Source: Candidatus Aceula lacicola (GTDB taxonomy: Bacteria > Omnitrophota > Gorgyraeia > Zapsychrales > Aceulaceae). From it: a stretch of 64,000 nucleotides of DNA. The notes under the pieces were generated by a model. The model was not told where the DNA came from, did not search any database, and saw nothing but the letters and a program-made list of their open reading frames with translations. A program made the translations under genes and the position numbers. Location of the stretch: the NCBI GenBank assembly GCA_030765785.1, contig JAVCCC010000028.1, forward strand, positions 2,826 through 66,825, read 5' to 3'. Shown here one piece after another: positions 18,392 through 56,318 of the stretch. Numbering within the stretch: the first letter of the stretch is position 1; every line of letters starts with the position of its first letter.

Positions 18392-19153
18392 TTATTTTAA
18401 AATCTGCTCAATTTGATTCTTAAACTCTTGGGCTGTCCGCCCCATTGTTCTCTTTCCATTAACAAAAAACGTAGGCGTTCCCCCAACTTCTGCTTTTCCA
18501 GCAACCGCCATACCTTTTTGAACCATTTGCTCTAATTGCGCATCTTGATCTTTTAATTTCTGAGCAAACTCATCGGCATCAATCCCAAGCTGCCCAGCTA
18601 ACTCTTTATACTTATCTTGACTTAAACCTTTAGCATTCTGAAAAATCAGATCCATCATTTCCCAATATTTTCCATATTGCTTAGCAATTAAAAGCGCTTT
18701 GGTTGCTGGCTTCGCTTCTTTGTGATAAGGAAGCGGGAAACTCATAAAAACATAATTAACATCCTCAGGATACGCATTGACAACATCCATGATAATCGGG
18801 TGAAATTTCTGAGAATAGGGACACTGGAAATCAGAAAATTCTACAACAGTCACTTTTGCTTTTGGATTTCCTTTAACCATCGAACCGCTAATGTCAATAT
18901 CATAAATTTTATTAGGATCTACTTTGGGTCTCGCTCTTTCTTGCCCTTTTGGCTGACGCAAAAGACCTTTACCCGACAATGCTTTTATAATTTGTTTTTG
19001 ATTATCTTCAATAGCAAATAACTTTTGCTCCAATCTCTTTTGATAAATAAAACCCTTTTTATATTCACTCATTTTCAAAGCAAACATTGCCAAAAGAAAA
19101 AGAGCCACTGAGCTAAACAACAATATTTTTTTTAACATTTTCTTCCCTTTCAA
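18392..19153 (-). CDS. DsbA-like thioredoxin-fold protein with single-Cys CPYS motif, membrane-anchored
   Basis: N-terminal TM helix. DsbA-fold region FSDFQCPYSQKF...LPYHK with CPYS in place of CxxC. Confidence 0.55.
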   Translation of the reverse strand: MKGKKMLKKILLFSSVALFLLAMFALKMSEYKKGFIYQKRLEQKLFAIEDNQKQIIKALSGKGLLRQPKGQERARPKVDPNKIYDIDISGSMVKGNPKAKVTVVEFSDFQCPYSQKFHPIIMDVVNAYPEDVNYVFMSFPLPYHKEAKPATKALLIAKQYGKYWEMMDLIFQNAKGLSQDKYKELAGQLGIDADEFAQKLKDQDAQLEQMVQKGMAVAGKAEVGGTPTFFVNGKRTMGRTAQEFKNQIEQILK

Positions 19154-23256: not shown

Positions 23257-23257
23257 A

Positions 23258-23290
23258 AAAGACCCATCTTTTAGATGGATCTTTCATTTT
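23258..23290. terminator. Bidirectional hairpin terminator between uppP (+) and tRNA-Glu (-)
   Basis: The inverted repeat CCATCT/AGATGG is flanked by A-run and T-run: AAAAAAGACCCATCTTTTAGATGGATCTTTCATTTT. T-tracts follow on both strands. Confidence 0.4.
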
Positions 23291-23366
23291 GGTAGCCCCA
23301 ACGAGATTTGAACTCGTGTTTTATGGCTGAGAACCATATGTCCTGACCAGGCTAGACGATGGGGCC
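23290..23366 (-). tRNA. tRNA-Glu (anticodon CUC)
   Basis: Manual fold of GGCCCCATCGTCTAGCCTGGTCAGGACATATGGTTCTCAGCCATAAAACACGAGTTCAAATCTCGTTGGGGCTACCA. 7-bp acceptor stem, TATGG/CCATA anticodon stem, loop TTCTCAG, T-arm ACGAG-TTCAAAT-CTCGT, encoded CCA. Confidence 0.7.
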
Positions 23367-23631
23367 AAATATGTTATTAATCCCGACACTCTTACATTCA
23401 GGATAGATTTTTAATCTAAACTGCTCATCTTTTTTGAAGAATAAAAACAACCGAATAAACCCCGCTTTGCGGGGTCATCTACTCACCTTTTAAAAAGCAT
23501 TTAAGATAAGTAAATAAAATAATACCATATCTTTCTAGATGGTCAACAAAAAATTATTAACCCCAGCTCTCATTCAAAAAACTTTTTCCCCACCTTCTCT
23601 GAATAAGAAATCTTCTAAAACAGAATTAAGG

Positions 23632-23662
23632 TTGACACTCCAAAATCTACCCTTTACTATAG
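23632..23662 (+). promoter_or_regulatory. Candidate sigma70 promoter for the FIST/HK/GGDEF operon
   Basis: TTGACA-N17-TACTAT about 40 nt upstream of the FIST gene start. Confidence 0.3.
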
Positions 23663-23703
23663 ATTGTACAAATTTTATTAACTAATATTAATATTCTTAT
23701 TTT

Positions 23704-24906
23704 ATGTCTATTCAAATCGGTATCGGCTTTAGTAAAGATGAGAGTCCTTTTCGCGCAGCGCAAGACGCCGCTATTCAAGCTAAAATTCAAACAAAAGAAG
23801 TCCCCGTTCAACTTGTTGTCGTTTTTTCGACAATCCACTATAGCCGAATTGAAGCTCTAAATGTTATCAAAGAAACATTTCCTGAAGCTAAAATCATAGG
23901 ATGCTCAACAAGCGGCCTTATTCTTTCTAAAACAATTGAAACTTGGGGCATTTCCATATTAGCCATCGGATCAAAAGATCTTCATTTTGGCATTAGTTGC
24001 GTCAAAAACATAAGCAAAGATAAAATCAATTTAATTTCTGAAGAGCTCGCCCAAAAAGCAACCAAAAACTTTGGCCTAGATCGTCGACAAGTATCCTTAC
24101 TGCTAACCGATGGGCTTTCTCAAAATAATTCTCTGCTTCTTAAGGGAATGCAAAAATCTTTAGGACTCCTCTCTCCGATCCTCGGTGCTGGCAGCAGCGA
24201 TAACTTTCAATCAAAAAAAACATATCAATACTTTGAGAATGAAGTTTTAACAGACTCCGCGATTGCCGTTATTATGGGCGGACAAATCGCCACCGGATTT
24301 TCTAGCCAACACGGATGGAAACCTTTGGGAAAACCACGTATTATTACAAAAGCAAAAAAAAATATTATCAAAGAAATTAACAATAAAAAAGCTATCTCGC
24401 TTTATGAAGAATTCTTTGCTGATCAAGCCGTGTCTCTTTTTTCAAGTCGGTTAAATCGTATGCGTGATTTTTATCCCTTAGGCATGCTTATCGAAGGTGA
24501 AAAAAAATATCTGTTACAACAAGTTGTCAGCGTCACAGATACCGGTGAGCTCGTTTGCCAAGGGGAAATTCCAGAAGGAACAGAAGTCCATATCATGATC
24601 GGAAACAAAGATTCTTGCCGCCATTCTGCTCTTAATGCGGCCTGCGAGGTGAAAGAATCTCTTTTTGGCAGAACTCCTGATCTTGTTCTTGTCTTTGAAT
24701 CCGCTTCTCGGCAAAAATTATTAGGCCGTAATATCTTTCAAGAAATCCAAATTATCAAAGAAGTTTTAGGAGAAAGTGTTCCCATTTTTGGAATGTACTG
24801 CTACGGTGAATTCGCTCCCCTAGGAACACCCGGGCAAGCAAGCCAGTCTTTTTTGCAAAATGAAACAATATCCATCTTAGCTATTGAACACCATAAGGTT
24901 TATTAG
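23704..24906 (+). CDS. FIST-domain sensory protein (FIST_N + FIST_C)
   Basis: 400 aa soluble protein with the two-lobed FIST architecture. Immediately upstream of a histidine kinase, as is common for FIST proteins. Confidence 0.5.
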   Translation: MSIQIGIGFSKDESPFRAAQDAAIQAKIQTKEVPVQLVVVFSTIHYSRIEALNVIKETFPEAKIIGCSTSGLILSKTIETWGISILAIGSKDLHFGISCVKNISKDKINLISEELAQKATKNFGLDRRQVSLLLTDGLSQNNSLLLKGMQKSLGLLSPILGAGSSDNFQSKKTYQYFENEVLTDSAIAVIMGGQIATGFSSQHGWKPLGKPRIITKAKKNIIKEINNKKAISLYEEFFADQAVSLFSSRLNRMRDFYPLGMLIEGEKKYLLQQVVSVTDTGELVCQGEIPEGTEVHIMIGNKDSCRHSALNAACEVKESLFGRTPDLVLVFESASRQKLLGRNIFQEIQIIKEVLGESVPIFGMYCYGEFAPLGTPGQASQSFLQNETISILAIEHHKVY

Positions 24907-24955
24907 TATATTAAATCAAGAAGCTATTAAGAATCTTTACTTTAAAATATAATTT

Positions 24956-26497
24956 ATGCTAAATATCACAAGTTCTTCTGTCGACCTTACCTTTTTTGCG
25001 ATTATCGGAATTGCCATCCTGACGATGATCGCAGCGCTAGTTTTTGTTCTTATCAACAAAATCGATCAGGTTAAAGAGCTACGCTCCGCTCTAAAAAAAC
25101 TTAAGCTGTCATTTAACAATTTGGACGAGCAGGCAAAGCTTATCTTAAAGACCGATCTCGAGCTTAACCGCGCACAAGAAGAGCTGGATAAACGTCTCGC
25201 CAGCCTTGATGCGCTTCAAAGAACATCACGTCTTATCAGCACAACTTTGGATGAGGCTGAAATCTTTCGAAGACTTGACAAATCCCTCATGCTTCAACTC
25301 GGTTTTGAACAAATCCTTGTTTTTATTCTTGATAAGAAAAAGAATTTAATTCCGCGCGTCAATTCTGGATTCTCAGACTCTAAAATTCAAGAAGCTTCCG
25401 ACCAACTTTTAAAAGATACATCTTTTTCTTCTTTGTTTAAAGAAGGCTATGCTCTTTCTTCTGCAACAACATCTAAAGCAAAAAAAGAAAAAATCATCGC
25501 TTTCTTTGGAGCAAGCAATTTTATTCTCTCTCCTATCTTGACACAAGATGGAACCATTGGCGTTATCTTCGTCGGAAATCAAAACGAAACACAAACAATG
25601 TCTGAAGCGGATGAAGAAATGATTTCCATCCTAACAAATCAAATCGGCCAATCTCTTGAGAACGCACAACTTTTTGAACAAGTCTACAAATCTCGACAAG
25701 AACTAGAATCAAGAATTCAAGAGAGAACCAGACAGCTTGCCTCTGCCTTAGAAAAAGTGCAAAAAATTAGCCGAACAAAAACCGAGTTCGTTTCAGCAGT
25801 TTCTCATGAGCTAAGAACTCCTTTGACATCTATCAAGGGGTACGCGTCGATTCTTATGACAGGAAAGCTCGGAGAAATTCCAGATAAAGTTAAAGAACGA
25901 CTAGAAAAAATTAACAAGCATTCCGACAACCTCGTCGAACTGATTAATGAACTTTTAGATATTTCTCGAATTGAGTCTGGACGCGTTGATATGAAATTTG
26001 AGAAAATACCTGTTAAAAGCTTAATAGAAAATGCACGTGATCTCTTGATGCTACAGATGAAAGAAAAACAAATCACATTCTCTTGTGAAATAGCAGAAAA
26101 AACTCCAAATATTTTGATTGATCAAAAACAAATTGAACGTGTTTTTATTAATCTTTTAAGCAATGCTATTAAATATACCCCAAATGGAAAAATAAACATC
26201 AAGGCCTCCCACAACGAAAAAGAAGTCCTTTTCGAAATCGAAGATACTGGATCGGGCATTAAGGCAGACGATCTTCCTCGTCTTTTCGATGAATTTTATC
26301 GAGTTGATGACGAGCTTAACCAAAATATCAAGGGAACGGGCTTAGGTCTCTCTTTAGCCAAGCATATTATCACAGCTCACCAAGGAGAAATATGGGTCAC
26401 CAGCGAAATCGGCATTGGAACAACATTTCATTTTACAATTCCTATTGATCGAAAAAATGAAAACCTTGATCAAGAAAAAGAAATTCTAAATTCATAA
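24956..26497 (+). CDS. Sensor histidine kinase (TM, coiled coil, GAF, HisKA, HATPase_c)
   Basis: H-box [19 protein letters not shown], plus N, G1 and G2 boxes (GTGLGLSLAK). GAF-like region precedes. Confidence 0.75.
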   Translation: MLNITSSSVDLTFFAIIGIAILTMIAALVFVLINKIDQVKELRSALKKLKLSFNNLDEQAKLILKTDLELNRAQEELDKRLASLDALQRTSRLISTTLDEAEIFRRLDKSLMLQLGFEQILVFILDKKKNLIPRVNSGFSDSKIQEASDQLLKDTSFSSLFKEGYALSSATTSKAKKEKIIAFFGASNFILSPILTQDGTIGVIFVGNQNETQTMSEADEEMISILTNQIGQSLENAQLFEQVYKSRQELESRIQERTRQLASALEKVQKISRTKTEFVSAVSHELRTPLTSIKGYASILMTGKLGEIPDKVKERLEKINKHSDNLVELINELLDISRIESGRVDMKFEKIPVKSLIENARDLLMLQMKEKQITFSCEIAEKTPNILIDQKQIERVFINLLSNAIKYTPNGKINIKASHNEKEVLFEIEDTGSGIKADDLPRLFDEFYRVDDELNQNIKGTGLGLSLAKHIITAHQGEIWVTSEIGIGTTFHFTIPIDRKNENLDQEKEILNS

Positions 26498-26512
26498 AAG
26501 GCTAAAAAATAA

Positions 26513-27442
26513 ATGAATCAACTAAAAATTTTAACTATTGATGATGACCCAGATATCCTAGATGTTTTAGAATTAACATTATCAGAAGATTATATTGTCT
26601 TTCAGGGATCCAACGGCGAAGAAGGCCTAACACTTGCCAAAACCCACTCTCCCGACCTTATTATTACAGATTATAAAATGCCGGTGATGGACGGCCGTCA
26701 ATTTTGTCGATTAATTAAAAAAGACATTTTATTACAGCACACGCCGATCATTATGCTCACCGGAAAAGGTGAAGTACGAGACAAGGTTGGCGGACTTGAG
26801 GCCGGCGCAGATGATTATCTTGTGAAACCATTTGAACCTAACGAACTTTTAGCCAGAATTCGTATGATTCTAAGACGTACCAAGCGAAGCCTTGATGCCA
26901 ACCCCCTAACGCGTCTCCCCGGAAACAATTCTATTATGGATGAGCTGCAATATCGCATTCAATCTCAAAAACCATTTGCTGTTGGTTACGCAGATTTAGA
27001 CAAATTTAAAGCCTATAACGACACTTATGGATTTGAGAAAGGCGATGAAATTATTAAAGAAACAGCTCGTATTGTCATTAACGCAACCCAAGAAAAAGGG
27101 GATAGAGAAACTTTCGTAGGCCATATTGGTGGCGATGATTTTGTTTTTATCTGCGAGGATGATATCGCTGACGCTATCTCGCAAGAAATAATCAAACAGT
27201 TTGATGCGAAAGCGCCTCTTTTTTACAACGAAAAAGATCGCGAAAAAGGCTATATCGTCGCAAAAAACAGACAAGGCGAACAGGTCAAGATTGGGCTTCT
27301 AGCTATTTCAATTGGAATTGTAAGTAGTCGTAAACAAGAAATTAAACACATCGCTCAAGTTGCTGAAATTGGAGCTGAATTAAAGAAATATGCAAAAAGC
27401 ATTGAAGGAAGCTCTTTTGTAAGGGATCAAAGAGCCGAATAA
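26513..27442 (+). CDS. Response regulator with receiver + GGDEF-type domain (GGDDF variant)
   Basis: REC domain (DDDPD...D...MLTGKG...K). C-terminal PLTRLPGNN...HIGGDDFVF matches the GGDEF fold. Confidence 0.65.
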   Translation: MNQLKILTIDDDPDILDVLELTLSEDYIVFQGSNGEEGLTLAKTHSPDLIITDYKMPVMDGRQFCRLIKKDILLQHTPIIMLTGKGEVRDKVGGLEAGADDYLVKPFEPNELLARIRMILRRTKRSLDANPLTRLPGNNSIMDELQYRIQSQKPFAVGYADLDKFKAYNDTYGFEKGDEIIKETARIVINATQEKGDRETFVGHIGGDDFVFICEDDIADAISQEIIKQFDAKAPLFYNEKDREKGYIVAKNRQGEQVKIGLLAISIGIVSSRKQEIKHIAQVAEIGAELKKYAKSIEGSSFVRDQRAE

Positions 27443-27453
27443 ATCGCACCTTC

Positions 27454-28137
27454 TTACTGCACACAAATCGTCACCTTAGCATCGTCGCCATTACAATCTC
27501 CACTACACCATTTAACAACAGGTCCATAGTCTTTTCCGGAAATGCTGGCTGGACAGTCCACATAAGTGTGATGCTCTTCTACTGGATATGCTTTAAAGGT
27601 TACTCCTGTTAATCCAGCAATGTTCGCTAAGTAAGGATCCATGCAAAGAGTGATTTTATCATCATCATCACTGCCATCACCACTAACCCAGCGAACAAGT
27701 AGATCCGTTCCAGCAGGGCAATTTGCAATACCCATATCGTCATCCTTGGGATAAGCAGATCCTCCAAGCTCTTTGTTGCAACACAACGTCATTGTAGAAT
27801 CATGACCCTCACATTCACCCTCACACCAATGAGCAAATTCGTACAGCCCTCCAACCCCATCTGAACAAGAAGCGTAGTTCGGAGTAGTGCCTCCCCAATA
27901 TTCCAAAGGATAGGCCTTACAAACTAAAGGCGGCGGGACAGGCGGGTCTTTCAGTTCTGTAACCGCATCTCCCATAATTTCTGTTTGAACCTTTTCAAAA
28001 TAATTCGTCATAGGGTCTCGGACATCGCCCCCTGTTTGAAAAAATGTTTTAAACCCCCAAAAAGCCACTAACCCACAAATGGTTAGAAGCAAAAGATACT
28101 CAATGGCAATTTGCCCTTTAAAAAGTTTATTTTTCAT
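27454..28137 (-). CDS. Cys-rich secreted protein with prepilin-type (class III) signal peptide
   Basis: N-terminus MKNKLFKG|QIAIEYLLLLTICGLVAFWGF has the KG/Q cleavage context, Glu at +5 and a hydrophobic helix. The ~200 aa mature part carries about 16 Cys and acidic DDDD runs. GGAG RBS; 28 nt downstream of rpe. Confidence 0.45.
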   Translation of the reverse strand: MKNKLFKGQIAIEYLLLLTICGLVAFWGFKTFFQTGGDVRDPMTNYFEKVQTEIMGDAVTELKDPPVPPPLVCKAYPLEYWGGTTPNYASCSDGVGGLYEFAHWCEGECEGHDSTMTLCCNKELGGSAYPKDDDMGIANCPAGTDLLVRWVSGDGSDDDDKITLCMDPYLANIAGLTGVTFKAYPVEEHHTYVDCPASISGKDYGPVVKWCSGDCNGDDAKVTICVQ

Positions 28138-28165
28138 AATGAAATGCTCTCCACTTTTAAGTATA

Positions 28166-28876
28166 TCATATTCTCAAGCTTTTAAGATACTTGACCGTTT
28201 CTTTCGGTTTTGAAGAACTAAAGAAATAACTAGCTGTCGCAAGAATATTAGCTCCCGCCTTAACGGCTTCTGGTGCAGTTAGCTCGTTAATGCCGCCATC
28301 CACCGCGATATCTTTATCAAAAATATCTCTTAAGCCCTGAATTTTCGCAAGTGCTACTGGCATAAACTTCTGCTTTGCAAACCCTGGATTAACCGACATC
28401 ACCAAAACGCCATCGGCCTGCTCTAAAACACCCTGAATACAAATAGGGCTAGATGGATTTAAAACAACAAAGGCCTTTTTGCCGTTGTCCTGAATTCTTT
28501 GAATATCTTTCCTAAGCTTTGATATATTAATAGCATCAACTTGCCGAGTATACCCATCTGCCTCTTTTGTCAAATGGCCATCAAGCGCATAACACTCTGC
28601 ATGCAAAGATATTGAATCTGTTCCTACTTTTAAAAAAGAATCGATATACGCGCTTGGATTCTCAATCATAAGATGCGCTTCAATCGGAAGCTTTGTAATC
28701 GGACGAATAGCTTCTACAATAAGCGCACCAACGGTAATATTCGGAACAAAATGACCGTCCATAACATCAATGTGCAGCATGTCAACACCAGATTCTTCAC
28801 ACATTTTAATTTCATTAGCTAAATTTGCAAAATCAGCACATAAAATACTAACGCTAACTTTAATTTCCTTACTCAT
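28166..28876 (-). CDS. rpe: Ribulose-phosphate 3-epimerase
   Basis: HIDVMDGHFVPNIT metal-binding motif. Confidence 0.85.
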   Translation of the reverse strand: MSKEIKVSVSILCADFANLANEIKMCEESGVDMLHIDVMDGHFVPNITVGALIVEAIRPITKLPIEAHLMIENPSAYIDSFLKVGTDSISLHAECYALDGHLTKEADGYTRQVDAINISKLRKDIQRIQDNGKKAFVVLNPSSPICIQGVLEQADGVLVMSVNPGFAKQKFMPVALAKIQGLRDIFDKDIAVDGGINELTAPEAVKAGANILATASYFFSSSKPKETVKYLKSLRI

Positions 28877-29040: not shown

Positions 29041-29742
29041 TTAACCTTCTGCGCCTGCTTTGCTTTTTAAATCTTGATACAGGTAATAACTAAAAATCAT
29101 TGCATAAATACCGAGTGCTATTTTAACAGCTTCATTGATAATAAATCCAACATATGGAATCAGAACCATAAAAGAAGAAATAATGGAAATCAAAAGCGCA
29201 ACGCCCATTAGCGCAAGCATTTTAAGCAAAAATTCTTTTAGATTAGCCTTAATGACGGATTTGCTAAGAACCAGCGCTTCATTTCCCCTCTTCTCGTCGA
29301 GAATAACCGACAATTGTGAAAAGCTATATAAAACAGAAAAAATGATACCTGGAATAATCAAAAGCAGCGACCATAAAAGCACTTTGATAAAAACAATGAC
29401 AGACACAACCGCAAACGGCTTTAAGACGCCTCTTGCTTCTTTATACATTTCCATGCCACTAACCGCTTGACCTTGCGCAGCATTATGAATTGTTTTAATA
29501 AGAGCAATCGAATAAAGCAATGCAAACAGAGTAATAGCTATAAACGCAATCCCTGAAACTAAAATGGAGATGACAAAAAAACCTCCATCAGCTGATTTTA
29601 AAAACGTAAAAATTCCACCACCTAACAAAATTAATACAACCATTGGAACAAAAAAGATGAAAAAAACAATAGAAAAAACTTTAATATTCTTTAAAAATAA
29701 ATCATAACTTTTTTTAAAAATAGCGCTAAAATTTTCTTCCAC
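29041..29742 (-). CDS. Polytopic membrane protein, hypothetical
   Basis: 233 aa with about 6 predicted TM helices. No recognised motif. Confidence 0.35.
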   Translation of the reverse strand: MEENFSAIFKKSYDLFLKNIKVFSIVFFIFFVPMVVLILLGGGIFTFLKSADGGFFVISILVSGIAFIAITLFALLYSIALIKTIHNAAQGQAVSGMEMYKEARGVLKPFAVVSVIVFIKVLLWSLLLIIPGIIFSVLYSFSQLSVILDEKRGNEALVLSKSVIKANLKEFLLKMLALMGVALLISIISSFMVLIPYVGFIINEAVKIALGIYAMIFSYYLYQDLKSKAGAEG

Positions 29743-29995: not shown

Positions 29996-31600
29996 TTAAG
30001 TCCCCTCTTCTCTATCTTCAAATCGCCTCATGTCGATAACCAGTGTTTTTTCTTGAAAACTTGATGGTTTTTCAGAGGCAACCCCAGAATCCACCTTGAT
30101 CTGATATCGATACATTTGCTTTTCATCATTAATATCTCTAAAAATATATAAAACCATCTTTGTGCTAGGATCAAAATTGATGTGAAACACCTCCATCGTT
30201 CCTTTAGCAACTTCTCTTAAAAGGCAAGAAACCAAACCCACCATGTTATGACTATAAACAGTCGTTAAATTGCCAAATTCATCACCTCTGTTTTTTAAAT
30301 ATCTCTCTTCAGGCTGAACAAAATAAATCTTCTCATATTCATTAATATTAACTTTTGCCATTTGATCTTTAACAAACTGAATCTCCTTCTGGCTTGGAAC
30401 AACACGATAATTTAATATTGTCTGATGTGCCTGCACCACACCATAAAAACTTAACAACAAAAGTGCGATAGAAAAAACTATTCTTTGACGATTTTGAAAA
30501 ATAAATTGAATCCATGCCCTTGCCGACCATATAAAAATAAAGAAAACAAGCACTGTGAGCGGTCCCGCACATCGATAATAAAAAATACTTTGACTGGAGA
30601 CAAGGTTAGGCAAAAAACTTAATAATGATAAAATAATCAAGATTGAAGATCGAACAAAACCATTTATAAAAAATTCTATTCTTTCTTCTTTTTGCTGTCG
30701 TAAAACTTCTAAAGCAATCGCGGAAATGACAAACGTAACACCAACAGCAGCAGCTATCTTATAAGGAAATATATTCCACAAGTTTAATGCATTTACCAAA
30801 GGCTCTCTAAGAAACCATCCTATTTTTCCAAAATAATCTGTTGTCAGCGCATATGGATTATATCCCCATAAATTAAATCGAGAAAAATATGGCTTAATTA
30901 ACCGAAGAACAAGCACGTAAAGACCTAGCGAAACGATTGCCGGAGAAAATAAATTAATCATCCGATTCTTAATTTCAGAGAAATCCTTAAACTCAGAAAA
31001 TAAAACAACCAGCCCAGCCATCGTCCAATAAAACATAGCTGTTGGCTTATACGTCGACAAGGCACAAAAAAACAAGAAAACAGATAATACAAATCGACCA
31101 TTAAATATCCGACGAACGATCTTATCCGACAAAGAAATACGGTAAGCAGACGAAAAAGCCCCAATGGCAAATAAAATAGAAACTGGCTGGTAAGTCATTG
31201 CCGTCTGAGATACGGCAATCTGAAAAGAAGGCAAAGTAAAAACAGCTAACGATAATAAAAAAGCGTTTCGTGATGAAAAAAATTTCTTCCGAAGCCAGAA
31301 AAAAAGAATGAGTGCGCAAAACGCAAGATTAACGACACCTAAAAATCGAACACCTTTAAGGTCATCAATAGAATTGATCAAAAACCCCATTGCCATGTAC
31401 AGATGCGCCCCAATAAAACGCCCAATTGATAAATTAAAAAGCGTCCCTGGCGCCTCAGGTCTCGTCGAAGTTCTTAAAAAGAAGATGACATCATCGTGAT
31501 ATGCATAATACGATGAAATGGCAGGCCAAAATGCAATACATAGAAAGATTAAAAAAAGGGAAAAAATAATGACTCTTTGAAAAACTTTTGTTTTAATCAT
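29996..31600 (-). CDS. Large polytopic membrane protein, possible GT-C-type glycosyltransferase
   Basis: 534 aa with more than 10 TM helices. An HDD motif follows the first TM helix (YAYHDDVIFF), as in GT-C enzymes. C-terminal soluble domain. Confidence 0.3.
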   Translation of the reverse strand: MIKTKVFQRVIIFSLFLIFLCIAFWPAISSYYAYHDDVIFFLRTSTRPEAPGTLFNLSIGRFIGAHLYMAMGFLINSIDDLKGVRFLGVVNLAFCALILFFWLRKKFFSSRNAFLLSLAVFTLPSFQIAVSQTAMTYQPVSILFAIGAFSSAYRISLSDKIVRRIFNGRFVLSVFLFFCALSTYKPTAMFYWTMAGLVVLFSEFKDFSEIKNRMINLFSPAIVSLGLYVLVLRLIKPYFSRFNLWGYNPYALTTDYFGKIGWFLREPLVNALNLWNIFPYKIAAAVGVTFVISAIALEVLRQQKEERIEFFINGFVRSSILIILSLLSFLPNLVSSQSIFYYRCAGPLTVLVFFIFIWSARAWIQFIFQNRQRIVFSIALLLLSFYGVVQAHQTILNYRVVPSQKEIQFVKDQMAKVNINEYEKIYFVQPEERYLKNRGDEFGNLTTVYSHNMVGLVSCLLREVAKGTMEVFHINFDPSTKMVLYIFRDINDEKQMYRYQIKVDSGVASEKPSSFQEKTLVIDMRRFEDREEGT

Positions 31601-51009: not shown

Positions 51010-52254
51010 TCAAGATTTTTTCTGAAGCTCATCCATCAAAACAATAGACTCTGCAATTTCTTTCATTGTCTTACAAGAATTCATGCTCTTTTTATGAATC
51101 ACTTTATGCGCCTCTTCTTCAGCCAGTCCTTGCATGCGCATCAAGATCCCCTTAGCCCGCTCAACAAGCTTACGAGTTTCAAGCGCTTCTTTAGCTTTAA
51201 CAGTCTCCTCAACAAGCTTAGTGTTTTCAATAGCAATCGCTGCCTGATTTGAAACCATTTGAAGAACGCTAATCTCTTCTTGCGAAAAAACATGCGGTCT
51301 TTTTGTATAAATATTGATAACACCAATCACGCGATCTTTAACAATCATAGGCACCGACAACATTGAACTTAAATGTTCTTTTTCTGCAAGATTTCGATAC
51401 GCATACTTCTCTTCCATGCGTACATCAAAATACATTTTAGCTTTTTTTGCCTTAACAGCTTCTCCGCTTAATGATTTTGATACTTTTACATTAGGCTTTT
51501 TCTTATAATCTTCACTTAAAGACTGCGTTGCCTTAATCGAAAGCTCCTGCTTCTTTTCATCTAAAAGCATAACCGAACAAATTTTAGAATCTAGCATTTC
51601 TGCCGTAACAACAACAATCAAACTCAAAATTTCATCTAAATAGCTTTCCGAAGTAATCGACTGACTCACCTTCATTAATTTATCAAATTGAATAGCCTTT
51701 TTCTTTGTCTCAGCATACAGCCTAGCATTCTCAATAACTCCGCTAACTTGTTTTGCAATAGTAGAAATTAAGCTAACAATACTCAGCGGAAAATCATATA
51801 CCCTTTTATGCTGTGCATTGATAACACCGATGGCAGACCCTTTATGCAAAATAGGAATCGAAAGAAAAGCTTCATATTGATCTTCAGGAAGAACATCAAA
51901 ATTCTTAAAACGAGAATCCTTGTACGCATTCTCCTTAATCTGGACTGTTTTATTCTCCTTAGCAACCCAACCTGTAATACCTTCGCCTACCTTTAAAGTA
52001 ATAGCACCAAGTTCTTTTTTATGAGGCGTTTTTGAAGCCATTAAAGTCAAAATCCTTCTTTTATTATCAAAAAGATAAATAAAAACAGAATCTACTTTTG
52101 TAATCGTATTAATAATTTTAACAACTTCACCCAAAACAAAGCTTAAATCTAGATCGGAACTTGTCAAATCAACAATTTTACTCAAAATCTCTATCTGCCG
52201 AGCCTGAGTGATTGCTGTTTTACCAGATTTCTTTATTTTTCTTTTTTCAACCAT
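51010..52254 (-). CDS. GAF-GAF-ANTAR RNA-binding antitermination regulator
   Basis: C-terminal ANTAR helix motif (LETRKLVERAKGILMRMQGLAEEEAHKVIHKKSM). Two GAF-like domains upstream. Confidence 0.7.
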   Translation of the reverse strand: MVEKRKIKKSGKTAITQARQIEILSKIVDLTSSDLDLSFVLGEVVKIINTITKVDSVFIYLFDNKRRILTLMASKTPHKKELGAITLKVGEGITGWVAKENKTVQIKENAYKDSRFKNFDVLPEDQYEAFLSIPILHKGSAIGVINAQHKRVYDFPLSIVSLISTIAKQVSGVIENARLYAETKKKAIQFDKLMKVSQSITSESYLDEILSLIVVVTAEMLDSKICSVMLLDEKKQELSIKATQSLSEDYKKKPNVKVSKSLSGEAVKAKKAKMYFDVRMEEKYAYRNLAEKEHLSSMLSVPMIVKDRVIGVINIYTKRPHVFSQEEISVLQMVSNQAAIAIENTKLVEETVKAKEALETRKLVERAKGILMRMQGLAEEEAHKVIHKKSMNSCKTMKEIAESIVLMDELQKKS

Positions 52255-52351
52255 AATGATTCCAAGAATATTAATATCAACAACTTATCGCATATTTTAA
52301 CATAAAAAAACAAAACTTCCAATTCCTTTAAAAACACGCTAAAATATTAAT

Positions 52352-52720
52352 ATGCAAAAAAAGATTTTAATTATTGATGATGACCCCGTCCAGACAAAAC
52401 TTTTAGAAACAAAACTTCCTGAAAATGGATATCTTTTTTTATCAGCTACCAAAGCAGCTGTCGGCCTTCAAATGGCTATAAATAAACACCCAGATTTAAT
52501 TATTTTAGATGTTATGATGCCTATCATCAACGGCTATAATCTCTGTCAACTTCTTAAGAACGACCCTACACATAAAAATATTCCAATCATTCTTCTAACT
52601 TCTCGCGATAAAGAAAAAGACATCGAGATTGGTCGCAATGTCGGGGCAGACGCCTACCTTATAAAACCAGTCAGCATCTCTTCTTTGTTAGAAAAAATAA
52701 AAGAACTTCTAAAAAACTAA
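52352..52720 (+). CDS. Single-domain response regulator (CheY-like receiver)
   Basis: DDDP...DVMMP...LLTS...K receiver motifs. 122 aa, no output domain. Confidence 0.7.
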   Translation: MQKKILIIDDDPVQTKLLETKLPENGYLFLSATKAAVGLQMAINKHPDLIILDVMMPIINGYNLCQLLKNDPTHKNIPIILLTSRDKEKDIEIGRNVGADAYLIKPVSISSLLEKIKELLKN

Positions 52721-52733
52721 CTAATGTCATTAA

Positions 52734-52757
52734 CCCCAACACGTTTCACGTGTGGGG
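52734..52757. repeat. Palindromic element CCCCAACACGTTTCACGTGTGGGG (copy 2 of 2, inverted relative to copy 1)
   Basis: Its reverse complement CCCCACACGTGAAACGTGTTGGGG matches 28999-29020. Confidence 0.5.
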
Positions 52758-52806
52758 TAAATTCGCACAGCACCTTGCATTCACTTTATTCCGCAAGACT
52801 GCGTAC

Positions 52807-53283
52807 TTATTTAAAAACTTTCGGCACCCACAATCCTACATAATAAGTCACAATAATAACAAGAATCGCAATCACCAAATGCTCTGCAATAGCCTTTGCA
52901 GGATTTGCTTTATCTTTCTTCGCAATATAATAACTAAACAATCCTAAAACAAGCAATCCCCATCCAATACTTACAAAAATCGCTGTTAACGTCTCAAGAA
53001 AAATAATAGGCAGAACAAAAATCATAGAAAAGAAAAACTTAACTACAAAAGTCGATATTGTCGCTTCCCAAATTTCTCTTGCGCTATGAACGCCTTCCGC
53101 CTCTTCAGAAAGATGAATTCCAAGAGCATCTGAAAATGCATCAGCAATCGCAATTGTTAAAATCCCACCAACAACAACCATCTTAGACCCTGTTCCCGAA
53201 TAAAGACCAACAATTAACCCCAAAGTCGTGATAATTCCTGAACTAAGCCCGAAACTAAAACCTTTTTGAATGGAATGATTCAT
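52807..53283 (-). CDS. Small polytopic membrane protein, VIT1/CCC1-like (putative Fe/Mn transporter-like)
   Basis: 158 aa with 4-5 TM helices. GLSSGIITTLGLIVG motif resembles the VIT family. Confidence 0.35.
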   Translation of the reverse strand: MNHSIQKGFSFGLSSGIITTLGLIVGLYSGTGSKMVVVGGILTIAIADAFSDALGIHLSEEAEGVHSAREIWEATISTFVVKFFFSMIFVLPIIFLETLTAIFVSIGWGLLVLGLFSYYIAKKDKANPAKAIAEHLVIAILVIIVTYYVGLWVPKVFK

Positions 53284-53303
53284 TTCTTTTTTTCTTTTTT
53301 TCT

Positions 53304-53834
53304 TTATTTTCTATCAAAAAATGGATTCTTTGATGTTGCGCTTAATGGAATTGCATAGGCAATCTTAACGTCTTTTCCAAGAATTCCCATTTCAAGAGCT
53401 GCCTGTCCGACACTATACATAATACGATTATCAATACGATGATCCATAGCTACGCTAACTGCAGAACCAATTGCAATACCTAGGTCTCCTATATTAAAAA
53501 CGCATGGAATATTCTTATGCTCATCTTTTTGTGCGCAATCTTTAAAACCACACATGCCACACTTCTTTAAACCCATCGGCTTAATCGTTGTGCCAGCTAA
53601 GATCATAATAGAAGAATTTAAAATATTTTGCGCGTCTCTTAAAAATCCAGGAGCATCATATTTTTCGCCCATTTCATTTATTTTTTTAGAAAGAATTTCA
53701 ATGTCTTTACGCTCTGCAATCTTAAAAACAAAAGTATCCGCCCCTTTTCCCTTAGGAGCCGTACGTGCAGCTATGATCATTTTTTGTGCGACATCTTTAA
53801 GTGATTGTTCTTTTATTTCATTTTCTTCAATCAT
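53304..53834 (-). CDS. DUF2148-like ferredoxin-domain protein
   Basis: 176 aa. CGMCGFKDC Cys cluster and overall length fit DUF2148. Confidence 0.45.
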   Translation of the reverse strand: MIEENEIKEQSLKDVAQKMIIAARTAPKGKGADTFVFKIAERKDIEILSKKINEMGEKYDAPGFLRDAQNILNSSIMILAGTTIKPMGLKKCGMCGFKDCAQKDEHKNIPCVFNIGDLGIAIGSAVSVAMDHRIDNRIMYSVGQAALEMGILGKDVKIAYAIPLSATSKNPFFDRK

Positions 53835-54050
53835 GCACCCTCCCCTTTAAGAAATAACATCTTTATGCTATCACAAAGAAAAGCTGTTTTCTATAGACAA
53901 GCACGCAATCTTACAAATTTATCTGCTAACAAACAAATGCAATATTCATAAATTACTGAGCAAATTTACCCAAAAAACACAAACAATACAAAATTTTCTT
54001 CTATTTTCCTCTTGGTCTTTTTGCATTCAAAGTGTACAATAAAAACCGTT

Positions 54051-55178
54051 ATGGACAAAACAAATATTACAATTATTGGAGCTGGAATTTGCGGTCTTGC
54101 CACAAGCTTCATCTTATCGCAAAAATATAAAGATATCTTTGTCGTTGAACAACGCGATTCTTTTGGACGCGAAACATCTTCTCGTAATTCTGAGGTTATC
54201 CACGCCGGAATTTACTATCCAAAAAATTCTCTCAAAGCAAATCTGTGTATTAAAGGAAAAACACTACTTTATGATTTATGCAAAAAACATAATATCCCTC
54301 ACCAACAACTTGGAAAAATCCTGGTCGCTTGTGATAACGCAGAAGAGAAAACAATTGAAGGCATTCAAAGAAATGCAGCTGAAAATGGCGTCAACAATCT
54401 TCGTTTTCTCAAAAAAGGTGAACTTGACACTTTAGAGCCAGATATAAAAGCACAAAAGGCACTCCTATGTCCCGACACGGGTATCGTTGACTCACATAAG
54501 CTTATGCACTTTTTTTCTGAAAAATCTAAAAACAACAACGTTGAATTTGCTTATAGCATAAAAGTTATCAACATCACAAAAAAAGACTCTGAATACGAAA
54601 TTACCGTCAAAGAGCCATCTGGTGAACTTTTTTCTTTTAAAACAAATATTATTATTAACGCTGGTGGATTCTATGCCGATGAAATTGCTTCAATGGCAGG
54701 CATTGATATTGAAAAAAATAAATACAAAATTCATTACAGCAAAGGTCAATATTTTCGCATTAGCCATCCTAAAAAATTTAAAATTAATCATCTCATCTAT
54801 CCACCGCCAAGCACTACCGATTTAGGCATTCATATCACTCCAGACTTAGCTGGAGGGCTTCGCCTTGGACCAGATGCAGCCTTTGTTGATACGATTGATT
54901 ATGCCATCAACGAACAAGATAAAGAAAAATTCGCAACGTCTGTTTCTCGATTTCTTAAAGACCTATCAATCGATGATCTCGTACCCGATACATGTGGCAT
55001 TCGAGCAAAGCTCCAAGCACCAACAGAAAACTTTAGAGATTTTGTTGTCACTCATGAAAAAGACAAAGGACTTGAAGGTTTTATTAATTTACTCGGAATT
55101 GAATCGCCAGGCCTAACGTCTTGCCTAGCCATTGCTGAAATGATAAAAGACCTTTTACAGCCTTTCGATAATCATTGA
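54051..55178 (+). CDS. FAD-dependent oxidoreductase, L-2-hydroxyglutarate oxidase (LhgO)-like
   Basis: GAGICGLA dinucleotide-binding motif and SSRNSEVIHAGIYYP motif. ATG at 54051 chosen over the upstream TTG of the track ORF. Confidence 0.65.
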   Translation: MDKTNITIIGAGICGLATSFILSQKYKDIFVVEQRDSFGRETSSRNSEVIHAGIYYPKNSLKANLCIKGKTLLYDLCKKHNIPHQQLGKILVACDNAEEKTIEGIQRNAAENGVNNLRFLKKGELDTLEPDIKAQKALLCPDTGIVDSHKLMHFFSEKSKNNNVEFAYSIKVINITKKDSEYEITVKEPSGELFSFKTNIIINAGGFYADEIASMAGIDIEKNKYKIHYSKGQYFRISHPKKFKINHLIYPPPSTTDLGIHITPDLAGGLRLGPDAAFVDTIDYAINEQDKEKFATSVSRFLKDLSIDDLVPDTCGIRAKLQAPTENFRDFVVTHEKDKGLEGFINLLGIESPGLTSCLAIAEMIKDLLQPFDNH

Positions 55179-56318
55179 AACTCCACCGCCACCACCAAAA
55201 CAAATACTCATTAATCCAATCTTTTTATTTTGATCTTCTAAAGCATACAAAAGGGTTGTAAGAATTCTTGTCGCTGTTGAGCCTAAGGGATGTCCTAACG
55301 CAATATCTCCACCAAAAATATTAAATTTTGCATCTTCAATGTTCAATCTTTCTTTTGTCAAAACAGCTTGCGATGCAAACGACTCTCCAATTTCAAAAAG
55401 ATCGATATCATTTCTTTTCAAATTACATTTCTCAAGACATTTCTCTGCTGCTTTAATAGCGCCTAAAAAAGAATCTTTAGGATCAATAGCAACAGATGAA
55501 TAGCCTAAGATCTTCGCTTTAGGTTTAAGCTCGTATTTCTTCATAGCTTGTTCGTCTGCCAATAAAATAATCGCTGCAGCATCTGCAGCGGATGATGCAT
55601 TGCCAGGCGTAACAGTTCCATCCTCTTTAAAAGAACTCGGAAGTCTCTGCATCTTTTCTAAACTAATATTCTTTCTTGCACGCTCATCTTTTGAAAAAAT
55701 TTCACCATTTTCTTTTTTAATACCAACAATTTCTTGATCAAACTTTCCTTGAAGCTGTGCCTGCAATGCTTTTTGATGACTTTCAAAAGCAAGCTTATCT
55801 TGTGCTTCTCGTGAAATGTTAAATTCTTTAGCTAAATTTTCCGCCAACTCTCCCATATGAGAATCTGCCATCACACACCAAAGCCCATCAGAAAGAAGAC
55901 TCTCTATCGGCTCTTGTTCTCTTTTAATAATTTGAGGATTATGCGTTGCGCTCTCTGCTCCTCCAGCTAAAACCAAATTAGCTTCGCCGCTTAATATAGC
56001 TTGAACTCCAACAATAACAGACTGAAGACCAGAACCACAAACACTGTTAATTGTAAAAGCGGGAATATTGATATTCAAATCAGATAAAAAAACAGCATGA
56101 CGAGCCATATTTTGACCTGTTCCAGCTGAAACCGCATGCCCTAAAACAACTTGATCAATACCTTTCTTAATTTTAGGATAGCGCCTGCAAATTTCATCAA
56201 TGACAAATCCAGCAAGCTGTGCAGCCGAAAAAGTTTTTAGACTTTTATGCGTACTACCAATAGGGGTGCGCACACCGTCAACAATATAAATAAAATTTAA
56301 AATTTGATTGGAAGCCAT
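55155..56318 (-). CDS. Acetyl-CoA C-acetyltransferase (thiolase)
   Basis: Active-site Cys region NSVCGSGLQSV. C-terminal CFGGGGGVSMIIE. Confidence 0.85.
   Translation of the reverse strand: MASNQILNFIYIVDGVRTPIGSTHKSLKTFSAAQLAGFVIDEICRRYPKIKKGIDQVVLGHAVSAGTGQNMARHAVFLSDLNINIPAFTINSVCGSGLQSVIVGVQAILSGEANLVLAGGAESATHNPQIIKREQEPIESLLSDGLWCVMADSHMGELAENLAKEFNISREAQDKLAFESHQKALQAQLQGKFDQEIVGIKKENGEIFSKDERARKNISLEKMQRLPSSFKEDGTVTPGNASSAADAAAIILLADEQAMKKYELKPKAKILGYSSVAIDPKDSFLGAIKAAEKCLEKCNLKRNDIDLFEIGESFASQAVLTKERLNIEDAKFNIFGGDIALGHPLGSTATRILTTLLYALEDQNKKIGLMSICFGGGGGVSMIIERL

What the first reader, a model, noticed from the sequence alone, without database searches (positions are those of the whole stretch)
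27454..28137. Orphan cysteine-rich protein with a prepilin-type (class III) signal peptide, no pilus machinery nearby
The N-terminus MKNKLFKG|QIAIEYLLLLTICGLVAF has the hallmarks of a prepilin-peptidase substrate: basic residues, a Gly-Gln cleavage context, Glu at +5 and a hydrophobic helix. This is closest to archaeal-type and Tad/Flp-type pilins.

The mature part (~200 aa) has about 16 cysteines in CxxC / CC / CxGxC arrangements and runs of Asp (DGSDDDDK, NGDDAK). That is far larger and far more Cys-rich than any Flp pilin. No PilB/PilC/TadA or prepilin peptidase is encoded nearby.

The gene sits 28 nt downstream of rpe and carries its own GGAG RBS. It could be a pilus-tip adhesin, a metal- or disulfide-rich surface module, or a new class of prepilin-peptidase-processed secreted protein.
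Basis: partly seen in the sequence, partly recalled or inferred. Interest (0 to 1): 0.7.

Follow-up and report, generated by a model that had tools for sequence, protein, structure and literature searches.

The report
Flp-like pilin with swappable cysteine-rich head
This gene most likely encodes a pilus-type surface-fibre subunit of an Omnitrophota bacterium: a conserved anchoring helix carries a disulfide-locked head made of three small modules resembling vertebrate resistin/PCSK9, and related species carry unrelated heads at the same genomic spot.

The parts
27454..28137 (-). Complete ORF, 227 aa plus stop. Predicted modular pilin precursor. The mature form would be 219 aa with pI 4.2.
   Evidence: Identical gene on independent metagenome contigs L017 and L018.
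28149..28152 (-). GGAG ribosome-binding site, 11 nt upstream of the ATG. The gene starts 28 nt after the rpe stop, so it is probably co-transcribed with rpe.
   Evidence: No convincing promoter or terminator between rpe and the gene.
28114..28137 (-). Leader peptide MKNKLFKG (8 aa, 3 Lys, ends in Gly-1). Predicted prepilin-peptidase cleavage after Gly8.
   Evidence: with the definition. Position -1 is G in 7 orthologs and A in 2. Position -2 is always K or R.
28051..28113 (-). Hydrophobic stretch of 21 residues, QIAIEYLLLLTICGLVAFWGF, with Glu5 and Tyr6 (Flp-type G|xxxxEY register).
27967..28113 (-). Conserved 'pilin module' (mature residues 1-49), predicted as one long, kinked N-terminal helix. 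This is the only part conserved among orthologs.
   Evidence: AF2 helices at residues 6-37 and 40-58. DNA homology to L001 and L003 runs up to window 27954/27960.
27922..27966 (-). Pro-rich linker AVTELKDPPVPPPLV between the pilin module and the head.
   Evidence: Conserved in the closest same-type ortholog P0006.
27433..27953 (-). Variable cassette. This DNA has no similarity to the syntenic genome L001, although both flanks are about 81% identical. It encodes the head.
27775..27921 (-). Head repeat 1 (aa 73-121) with all six Cys. Predicted disulfides: 73-120, 91-119, 105-109.
27634..27774 (-). Head repeat 2 (aa 122-168). Degenerate: it keeps only C2 and C5, giving a predicted 140-165 disulfide. 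Contains the Asp run DGSDDDDK.
27457..27603 (-). Head repeat 3 (aa 179-227). Lacks C1 and C6. Predicted disulfides: 195-225 and 211-215. Carries the canonical WCSGDCNGDDAKVTIC motif.
28166..28876 (-). rpe (ribulose-phosphate 3-epimerase), the conserved upstream neighbour in every locus examined.
23704..27442 (+). Convergent, conserved neighbours: FIST protein, GAF histidine kinase, and a response regulator with a GGDEF-like domain (motif GGDDF). A functional link to the pilin is inferred only.

Best explanation
The gene encodes a modular type IV-filament subunit. A minimal Flp/Epd-like pilin module (class III signal peptide plus a helix of about 50 aa) is joined by a Pro-rich linker to a 155-aa extracytoplasmic head.

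Inferred mechanism:
1. The precursor inserts into the inner membrane.
2. A prepilin peptidase cleaves after Gly8, leaving Gln1 and Glu5.
3. The head folds oxidatively into three small beta modules locked by six disulfides. These probably pack as a pseudo-trimer, as in the PCSK9 C-terminal domain.
4. The N-terminal helix is extracted from the membrane and built into a type IV filament, or onto its tip, by machinery encoded elsewhere in the genome. The head is thereby displayed as a binding module.

Between species, the head-coding segment has been replaced as a cassette while the pilin module and the locus stayed fixed. This suggests selection on what the fibre binds or on what recognises it.

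Shown here: the motif and its conservation, positional orthology, the cassette boundaries, the repeat architecture, the fold similarity, and an assembly ATPase in the same genome.

Inferred: cleavage, polymerisation, the disulfides, and an adhesive role.
For: N-terminal signal:
- All sequence criteria of a class III signal are met: an 8-aa leader ending in Gly, 21 hydrophobic residues and Glu5.
- Q+1, A+3, I+4, E+5, Y+6 and L+7 are invariant in nine orthologs. Position -1 is G or A and -2 is K or R.
- Pfam Class_IIIsignal is the only hit for this protein (E 0.0079). It recurs in 4 of 4 further orthologs (E 2e-4 to 4e-3).
- The N-terminal profile's only pilin-like PDB matches are Caulobacter Tad PilA (8u1k) and Flp (8u2b), with TAIEY at mature positions 2-6.
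- AF2 predicts a long N-terminal helix, residues 6-58.

Orthologs and cassette:
- The position rpe -> gene -> <- RR-GGDEF <- HK <- FIST is the same in L001, L003, L004 and L005. In L006 the gene follows rpe and is followed by a convergent gene cut off by the contig end.
- The L005 ortholog is Flp-sized: 78 aa, with a mature length of about 57 aa and no head.
- Flanking proteins are about 90% identical to those of L001, but the head is unalignable (227 aa against 165 aa). DNA homology stops at window 27954 and resumes at 27432.
- GC3 of the head matches the host (0.35 against 0.31), so the head is not recently foreign.

Head:
- It consists of three significant internal repeats (z 4.3-13.8).
- An exhaustive HMMER search finds the module in same-architecture orthologs (P0006, P0011) and in Sec-secreted or TM-anchored proteins.
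- Across 16 repeats, C1 and C6 are both present in 12, both absent in 4 and never discordant. C3 and C4 are 13 / 3 / 0. C2 and C5 are invariant.
- This is the disulfide topology published for each PCSK9 CHRD module, which is itself a three-module resistin-like pseudo-trimer.
- AF2 on repeat 1 with a 16-sequence alignment gives pLDDT 87.3.

Machinery:
- A 720-aa MshEN + T2SSE + REC ATPase (T2SSE E 6e-135, Walker A motif, Cys tetrad) lies on a contig that is 100% identical to the window over 12.6 kb, 37 kb from the gene.
- Tad and T4aP systems are widespread in Omnitrophota.
- Modular pilins with grafted heads are an established kind.
Against: - All Class_IIIsignal hits are below Pfam's gathering score (16.6-21.6 bits against 23.7). 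Flp_Fap, TadE and N_methyl models give nothing, and NCBIfam gives nothing.
- The PDB matches to Flp pilins have E of about 1-2.
- No prepilin peptidase, platform protein or secretin was seen in the 64-kb window or in about 13 kb of extensions.
- The one ATPase found is PilB/MshE-type, whereas the pilin motif is Flp/Epd-type. The cognate machine is therefore not identified.
- Foldseek against PDB and BFVD finds nothing.
- Profile-profile comparison with resistin gives E 0.033 over 22 columns, and with PCSK9 modules nothing.
- The head profile finds no PDB sequence.
- The full-length single-sequence AF2 model fails for the head (pLDDT below 50), so the three-module packing is untested.
- The only DsbA-like protein in the window has CPYS rather than CxxC.
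Confidence: 0.6

Rival explanations
1. The protein is processed by a prepilin peptidase but is not a filament subunit. It would be a surface-displayed or released protein that only borrows the class III signal and type IV machinery, like the archaeal 'bindosome' sugar-binding proteins. Alternatively it is strictly a single-copy tip or minor pilin rather than a polymerising subunit.
For: - Class III signals occur on non-pilus proteins (the bindosome passage).
- Modular pilins with bulky heads are thought to sit at the tip.
- A 155-aa head on a very small Flp-type helix may be hard to pack along a filament (inference).
- The gene is solitary, away from any pilus operon.
Against: - The conserved part extends over the full ~50-aa helix that forms the polymerisation interface, not just the cleavage site.
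- The headless ortholog in L005 looks like an ordinary Flp-sized major pilin.
- Invariant Glu5 is needed for assembly rather than for cleavage.
Confidence: 0.22
2. The protein is an ordinary N-terminally anchored (uncleaved signal-anchor) or Sec-processed periplasmic or outer-surface protein. The resemblance to a class III signal has no functional meaning.
For: - No curated pilin HMM reaches threshold.
- No peptidase was found in the sequence available.
- The same head module is also used behind ordinary Sec signals and TM anchors in other proteins.
Against: - A plain anchor would not be expected to keep [KR]-[GA]-Q-x-A-I-E-Y-L invariant, with a charged Glu inside the helix, across orthologs that are only 26-36% identical over the aligned N-terminal region.
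- The register matches Flp pilins exactly.
- The motif is unique to this gene family in about 250 kb scanned.
Confidence: 0.13
3. The protein is a ribosomal peptide or bacteriocin-type precursor. The conserved N-terminal region would be a leader and the hypervariable Cys-rich C-terminus a modified and exported core.
For: The pattern of a conserved N-terminus with an unrelated Cys-rich C-terminus of variable length, and an even Cys count (12 in all four long tails), superficially resembles leader/core families.
Against: - The 'leader' is a 21-residue membrane helix with a pilin motif.
- No maturase, radical-SAM enzyme, protease or transporter genes flank it in any of the loci. The neighbours are rpe and signalling genes.
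- The head is a 155-aa repeat domain with a confident globular fold prediction.
Confidence: 0.03

Closest known systems
Flp/Tad (type IVc) pilins, e.g. Caulobacter PilA (PDB 8u1k) and Pseudomonas Flp (8u2b), and their archaeal Epd relatives (Pfam Class_IIIsignal PF04021)
   Same: - Short basic leader, cleavage-site Gly, and the G|xxxxEY register with Glu5 and Tyr6.
- A small, helix-only pilin module.
- The L005 ortholog has the typical Flp size.
- The closest HMM being an archaeal one fits the published archaeal origin of Tad.
   Different: - Mature length is 219 aa, against about 45-60 aa for Flp pilins.
- It carries a C-terminal globular head.
- It is not in a tad locus.
- The Flp_Fap and TadE HMMs do not match, and Class_IIIsignal is below threshold.
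Modular type IV pilins, e.g. Streptococcus sanguinis PilB (vWA module) and PilC (lectin module), and ETEC CofB (PMC8179133)
   Same: An N-terminal pilin module is joined by a short linker to a grafted 'effector' module, presumably displayed by the filament, most likely at its tip, for binding.
   Different: - The pilin module here is a bare Flp-like helix without the usual alpha/beta pilin fold.
- The grafted module is unannotated and resistin/PCSK9-like.
- The module is exchanged between species at a fixed locus.
- No experimental data exist for this protein.
PCSK9 C-terminal Cys/His-rich domain (three modules M1-M3) and the resistin / RELM head trimer
   Same: - Each module has six Cys, ending in an adjacent CC pair.
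- Disulfides are nested C1-C6, C2-C5, C3-C4 (inferred here, published for PCSK9).
- There are three tandem modules.
- A single-module relative (P0008) has signal peptide + coiled coil + head, like resistin, and a weak Pfam Resistin hit (E 0.006).
   Different: - The modules are shorter, about 47 aa against 60-78 aa. The C3-C4 loop is only 3 residues, and three rather than six strands are predicted.
- No significant sequence similarity was found.
- The host is bacterial and the context is a pilin.
- Homology and convergence cannot be told apart.
Allelic C-terminal variation of major type IV pilins at a fixed locus, e.g. Pseudomonas aeruginosa pilA groups and Dichelobacter fimA serogroups (from general knowledge, not checked here)
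   Same: Conserved N-terminal helix, divergent C-terminal part, conserved flanking genes.
   Different: - Here the heads are not divergent alleles of one fold. They are unrelated sequences of different length, from 0 to 170 aa.
- The cassette is fixed within the species sampled: all 24 contigs read that carry the identical rpe have a 227-aa downstream neighbour, and the two compared at DNA level are identical.

Membership tests
Type IV pilin / class III signal peptide proteins | Hydrophilic leader of 6-26 aa ending in Gly (-1) | tested here: met
   The leader is MKNKLFKG, 8 aa. Gly is at -1 in 7 of 9 orthologs and Ala in 2. Definition from PMC4471445.
Type IV pilin / class III signal peptide proteins | About 21 predominantly hydrophobic residues after the cleavage site, interrupted by Glu5 | tested here: met
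   The stretch is QIAIEYLLLLTICGLVAFWGF, exactly 21 residues before the first Lys. Glu5 is invariant in 9 orthologs.
Type IV pilin / class III signal peptide proteins | Match to a curated pilin or class III HMM at its trusted threshold | tested here: not met
   PF04021 scores 16.6 bits against a gathering score of 23.7. Orthologs score 17.4-21.6 bits. There is no hit to N_methyl, Flp_Fap or TadE at E <= 10, and none in NCBIfam.
Type IV pilin / class III signal peptide proteins | Long N-terminal alpha-helix (alpha1) that forms the assembly interface | tested here: met
   AF2 predicts helices at 6-37 and 40-58, with pLDDT 88-89 over residues 11-30 and lower beyond. This segment is the only conserved part of the protein.
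Type IV pilin / class III signal peptide proteins | Cleavage by a dedicated A24 prepilin peptidase | not testable with these tools
   No peptidase gene was found in the window or its extensions. The rest of the genome could not be read.
Type IV pilin / class III signal peptide proteins | Dedicated assembly machinery (ATPase, platform protein) in the same genome | tested here: inconclusive
   A PilB/MshE-type ATPase (MshEN + T2SSE + REC) lies 37 kb away on a contig 100% identical to the window. No platform protein or peptidase was seen. The literature reports Tad and T4aP systems across the phylum.
Flp/Tad pilins | G|xxxxEY processing motif | tested here: met
   The motif reads G|QIAIEY. The register aligns with the mature N-termini of 8u1k and 8u2b.
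Flp/Tad pilins | Very small mature pilin (about 40-60 aa) encoded in or next to a tad locus | tested here: not met
   Mature length is 219 aa and there are no tad genes in 64 kb. The L005 ortholog does have a Flp-like size, about 57 aa mature, but is also not in a tad locus.
Resistin / PCSK9-CHRD-like module | Six-Cys module with nested disulfides C1-C6, C2-C5, C3-C4 and a terminal CC pair | tested here: met
   Inferred from perfect co-presence and co-loss of C1/C6 (12 / 4 / 0) and C3/C4 (13 / 3 / 0) in 16 repeats, with C2 and C5 invariant. No disulfide was observed directly.
Resistin / PCSK9-CHRD-like module | Beta-sandwich fold superposable on resistin or PCSK9 modules | tested here: inconclusive
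Resistin / PCSK9-CHRD-like module | Sequence membership (Pfam Resistin PF06954 or PCSK9 C-terminal families) | tested here: not met
   There is no Pfam hit for the protein or for any single repeat. The head profile finds nothing in PDB sequences. hhalign gives E 0.033 against resistin and nothing against PCSK9. The only hit is a sub-threshold Resistin match in the relative P0008.
Resistin / PCSK9-CHRD-like module | Three modules packed as a trimer or pseudo-trimer | not tested

The most novel reading that the evidence does not exclude
Omnitrophota keep one Flp-like 'carrier' pilin gene at a fixed chromosomal site and exchange its head as a cassette. One head type would be a true prokaryotic relative of the resistin / PCSK9-CHRD module, so far known from vertebrates (from general knowledge, not checked here). 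Because resistin-family proteins bind and permeabilise bacterial membranes (PMC13647132), such a head at the end of a pilus could be a targeting or membrane-attacking device. These ultra-small, putatively predatory or parasitic bacteria might use it on partner cells, with head swapping setting host range.
Probability: 0.2. Interest if true: 0.8.

Novelty: new variant of a known kind. Interest (0 to 1): 0.55.

Why it matters
Omnitrophota are uncultured, mostly ultra-small bacteria suspected of predatory or parasitic lifestyles. Pili are among the few candidate host-contact structures in these organisms.

- This locus offers a concrete, conserved 'carrier plus exchangeable head' pilin that can be surveyed across genomes to ask what these cells attach to.
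- It adds an unannotated, disulfide-locked mini-domain family. The family is used on pilins, on fibre-like secreted proteins and on coiled-coil stalks. Its predicted fold and disulfide topology match resistin/PCSK9, a fold described so far in vertebrate proteins.
- If the relationship is real homology, it bears on the origin of that fold. If it is convergence, it is a clear case of the same three-module, three-disulfide solution arising twice.
- Practically, the family shows that standard pilin HMMs miss Flp/Epd-like pilins in candidate phyla.

Tried and rejected
Searches that gave nothing useful:
- Word-indexed protein searches were poor. The full-length query gave 4 hits, the N-terminal 62 aa gave 1, and the repeat profile gave 1. 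The exhaustive HMMER search and the contig scans were what opened up the family.
- P0007, a eukaryotic FN3/PTP receptor, was rejected as spurious.
- There were no hits for single repeats in Pfam or for the proteins in NCBIfam.
- The head profile found nothing among PDB sequences. Foldseek found nothing in PDB or BFVD.
- A scan of viral contigs found none. The afdb50 library was unavailable.
- Profile-profile tests for resistin or PCSK9 homology were weak or negative. I claim fold and disulfide-topology resemblance only.
- Single-sequence AF2 of the whole protein failed for the head.

Hypotheses considered and rejected:
- Foreign origin of the head. Its GC is 46% against 36-39% for neighbouring sequence, but GC3 is host-like, so the excess reflects Gly/Asp/Cys/Pro/Ala content.
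- A diversity-generating retroelement. The heads differ in length and are unalignable, and no reverse transcriptase lies nearby.
- Within-species cassette variation. All 24 contigs read that carry the identical rpe have a 227-aa downstream neighbour, and the two compared at DNA level are identical.
- Homology among the other head types (P0002, P0003, P0004). No pairwise similarity exceeds shuffled controls.

Limits on reach:
- Extending the window located an ATPase but no peptidase.
Full report
**1. The observation**

The ORF is real. It lies at window 27454..28137 on the minus strand, starts with ATG and encodes 227 aa. It begins 28 nt after the stop of rpe (28166..28876) and has a GGAG 11 nt upstream of the start codon.

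Two details need correcting:
- There are 13 Cys, one in the hydrophobic helix and 12 in the mature part, not about 16.
- There is no CxxC. The arrangements are two CxGxC and one CC.

A regex for a class III N-terminus matches no other ORF N-terminus in the window. In about 190 kb of related loci fetched later it matches only the orthologs of this gene. The motif is therefore not a chance feature of the local sequence composition.

**2. Surroundings**

Pfam scans of all ORFs of at least 120 aa in the window show housekeeping genes:
- a V-type ATPase operon;
- pyrimidine biosynthesis genes, carAB, purF and pyrG;
- gltB, glnA-III, amt and P-II;
- trehalose metabolism genes;
- many two-component proteins.

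There is no pilus ATPase, platform protein, secretin or A24 peptidase. The only Rfam hit is one tRNA. Downstream and convergent, with stop codons 11 nt apart, lies a response regulator with a GGDEF-like domain, preceded by a GAF histidine kinase and a FIST protein.

**3. Not an orphan: a positional ortholog family**

The first protein search found only the identical protein and three relatives (P0002 to P0004). These share just the first ~57 residues with the query.

P0004 comes from an Omnitrophica MAG (GCA_028693815.1). There it sits in exactly the same gene order: carB-purF-pyrG-membrane-membrane-rpe-[gene], followed by convergent RR-GGDEF, HK and FIST.

A scan of GTDB species genomes with the N-terminal alignment gave three more loci (L003, L004, L005), all with the same arrangement. 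A further relative, P0011, also lies directly after rpe and is followed by a convergent gene cut off by the contig end.

Identity of the neighbours to the window falls from about 90% (L001) to about 63-66% (L004, L005). The association is therefore old.

Over the N-terminal 66-78 aa aligned, the nine orthologs are 26-77% identical to the window protein. They keep the following:
- Q+1, A+3, I+4, E+5, Y+6 and L+7 invariant;
- G (7 of 9) or A (2 of 9) at -1;
- K or R at -2.

**4. A conserved carrier with an exchangeable head**

Against L001, rpe and the response regulator are 91% identical at the protein level, but the target protein is alignable only to residue ~57 (227 aa against 165 aa).

At the DNA level, ~81% identity runs from rpe to window 27954, which is about codon 61. 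It resumes at 27432, inside the 3' end of the convergent gene. The ~520 bp in between have no counterpart.

The C-terminal parts of the orthologs differ as follows:

| Ortholog | Size | C-terminal part |
|---|---|---|
| L005 | 78-aa precursor, ~57 aa mature (Flp-sized) | none |
| L004 | 80 aa | 26-aa, six-Cys knot |
| P0002, P0003, P0004 | tails of 81-108 aa | three mutually unrelated Cys-rich tails |
| window, P0006/L003, P0011 | 227-259 aa | three-repeat head |

The four long tails show no pairwise similarity above shuffled controls (z <= 1.2). Yet each has exactly 12 Cys and is acidic.

The head's higher GC comes from its amino-acid composition. Its GC3 (0.35) is close to the host value (0.31).

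Within the species sampled the cassette is fixed. All 24 contigs read that carry the identical rpe have a 227-aa downstream neighbour, and the two compared at DNA level have zero nucleotide differences in the gene.

**5. The N-terminal module**

The review definition of a class III signal peptide is a hydrophilic leader of 6-26 aa ending in Gly, then 21 mostly hydrophobic residues interrupted by Glu5. Cleavage is by a dedicated peptidase after the Gly (PMC4471445). The protein meets every sequence criterion.

- Pfam's only hit is Class_IIIsignal (PF04021, an archaeal family) at E 0.0079 and 16.6 bits, below the gathering score of 23.7. The same sub-threshold hit recurs in all four other orthologs tested.
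- No bacterial pilin model (N_methyl, Flp_Fap, TadE) and no NCBIfam model matches.
- A profile of the N-terminus searched against PDB sequences finds, apart from one unrelated membrane protein, only the Caulobacter Tad pilin and a Flp pilin. The E-values are 1-2, so the matches are not significant. They do place TAIEY at mature positions 2-6, the register expected if cleavage is at Gly8|Gln9.
- AF2 predicts a long, kinked N-terminal helix, residues 6-58.

Resemblance to both archaeal and Flp types is expected, because Tad systems are reported to derive from an archaeal Epd-like pilus (PMC6668835).

**6. The head**

Residues 73-227 form three tandem repeats of ~47 aa. Alignment scores are 4.3 to 13.8 SD above shuffles.

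An exhaustive HMMER search of 1.84 billion representatives with residues 60-227 found eight real relatives. A metagenome scan added more. The module consensus is C-x-A-x-P-x-E...C-P-x-G...W-C-S-G-D-C-x-G-D-D-A-K-V-T-I-C-C. It occurs in three architectures:
1. a class III pilin module plus three modules (window, P0006, P0011);
2. a Sec signal plus a long fibre-like repeat region plus three modules (L009, L012, L013, from marine and other metagenomes);
3. a Sec signal or TM anchor, in one case with a coiled coil, plus a single module (P0008, P0010, P0013, L008).

None of these proteins carries a functional name or a Pfam domain.

In the 16-repeat alignment:
- C2 and C5 are invariant;
- C1 and C6 are both present in 12 repeats, both absent in 4, never discordant;
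- C3 and C4 are both present in 13, both absent in 3, never discordant.

This implies disulfides C1-C6, C2-C5 and C3-C4, which is six disulfides in this protein.

The PCSK9 CHRD is described as three tandem modules, each with six Cys bonded 1-6, 2-5 and 3-4, together resembling the resistin homotrimer (PMC9113161). That is the same module count and the same disulfide topology inferred here independently from sequence.

Caveats:
- Foldseek finds nothing.
- Sequence-level tests are weak or negative. hhalign against resistin gives E 0.033 over 22 columns that do align C-P-x-G and C-x3-C. Nothing is found against PCSK9, and the head profile finds nothing among PDB sequences.

I therefore claim fold and topology resemblance, not membership of the resistin family.

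**7. Machinery**

Looking up window proteins in public assemblies showed that the organism is widely sampled. Contig L019 is 100% identical to window 51393..64000 and extends 7.7 kb beyond the window end.

About 1.1 kb past the end, at window-equivalent ~65.1-67.3 kb and 37 kb from the gene, it encodes a 720-aa protein. Its domains are MshEN (E 9e-21), a full-length T2SSE domain (E 6e-135, with Walker A motif and Cys tetrad) and a C-terminal receiver domain. This is a PilB/MshE-type filament-assembly ATPase.

No peptidase or platform gene is in the sequence I could reach. Published surveys report Tad and/or T4aP systems in most Omnitrophota classes, and Flp-family pilins in V. archaeovorus. 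Scattered pilus genes are normal for type IVa systems.

**8. Most likely mechanism**

The protein is most likely a modular pilin. I put the probabilities as follows:
- a class III signal that is actually used: about 0.8;
- incorporation into a filament, in the body or at the tip: about 0.6;
- a resistin/PCSK9-like fold for the head: about 0.6;
- an adhesive or targeting function: about 0.4.

In this model the precursor is cleaved after Gly8. The ~50-aa helix is the assembly module. The Pro-rich linker projects a six-disulfide, acidic (pI 4.2) triple-module head as a ligand-binding unit. Head replacement between species retargets the fibre or evades recognition.

The conserved convergent FIST-HK-RR(GGDEF-like) cluster and the MshEN (c-di-GMP-binding) domain on the ATPase suggest second-messenger control. 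This rests on synteny alone.

**9. Rivals**

- Class III processing without polymerisation, or a strictly tip-located minor pilin (0.22).
- An ordinary signal anchor (0.13). This is disfavoured by the invariant charged motif.
- A RiPP-like precursor (0.03). This is disfavoured by the membrane helix, the lack of maturases and the globular repeat head.

**10. Comparison and novelty**

The closest concept is the modular pilin of Raynaud et al. (PMC8179133), in which a pilin module carries a grafted effector module, probably at the tip. More than 1,200 examples were found through bacterial pilin signatures.

This case differs in three ways:
- The carrier is a minimal Flp/Epd-like helix that standard HMMs miss.
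- The head is a new, unannotated module with a resistin/PCSK9-like predicted fold.
- Unrelated heads occupy the same conserved locus in related species.

I rate it a new variant of a known kind. The 'orphan' and 'new class of substrate' framing is not.

**11. Limits**

- There is no experimental evidence.
- The prepilin peptidase was not located.
- The fold assignment rests on one predicted repeat.
- The packing of the three modules is untested.
- Taxonomic assignments come from record titles only.

Noticed in passing
L019:4485-6647 (+), equivalent to about 65115..67277 just past the window end, minus strand: A 720-aa fusion of an MshEN (c-di-GMP-binding) domain, a full PilB/GspE-type T2SSE ATPase and a C-terminal receiver domain. 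It sits among single-domain response regulators and a 1098-aa dCache-PAS kinase whose 3' part is the window ORF 61785..63974. A receiver-fused pilus-assembly ATPase is unusual.
   Followed up: partly
window 26513..27442 (+), and its orthologs in L001, L003, L004 and L005: The response regulator next to the pilin gene has GGDDF in place of GG[DE]EF. The variant is conserved in all loci read, and Pfam matches only positions 5-120 of the 161-position GGDEF model. It may be a non-canonical or inactive cyclase.
   Followed up: no
window 18392..19153 (-): A DsbA-like thioredoxin-fold protein with an N-terminal membrane or signal segment. Its active-site motif is CPYS, with a single Cys instead of CxxC. 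This is relevant to how the six-disulfide head would be oxidised.
   Followed up: no
L009:1381-2679, L012:6387-8435, L013:4260-5660: Sec-signal proteins of 432-682 aa from marine and other metagenomes. They combine a long region of 'G-x-V-G-I-G-T..P..K-L-H-I' fibre-like repeats with three C-terminal copies of the same Cys module. In these proteins the third copy has lost C3 and C4. No Pfam match was found.
   Followed up: partly
P0008 (112 aa, Logan contig): A single-module relative with signal peptide + coiled coil + Cys-rich head, the same layout as resistin. It gives a sub-threshold Pfam Resistin hit (E 0.006, 17.5 bits).
   Followed up: partly
C-terminal tails of the window protein, P0002, P0003 and P0004: Four heads with no detectable mutual similarity and lengths of 81-170 aa each contain exactly 12 Cys and are strongly acidic. 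The L004 mini-head has 6 Cys in a CGDGIC...CPPDCGIC pattern.
   Followed up: partly
window 29041..29742 (-) and 29996..31600 (-): Two polytopic membrane proteins just upstream of rpe have no Pfam family above threshold. Against L001 they are only 64-70% identical, while the surrounding genes are about 90% identical. This is a second fast-evolving patch next to the pilin gene.
   Followed up: no
window 23257..23703 (tRNA at 23293..23366, minus strand), compared with L001:14249-18100: Between FIST and bacA the window has only a tRNA. The syntenic MAG instead carries a MerR regulator, three HSP20 genes and a DnaJ-like gene.
   Followed up: no
L015:14618-15762: Contigs of this organism end about 5 kb beyond the window's left edge at an IS element (rve/DDE transposase plus HTH_Tnp_1). 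This probably explains the assembly breaks there.
   Followed up: no
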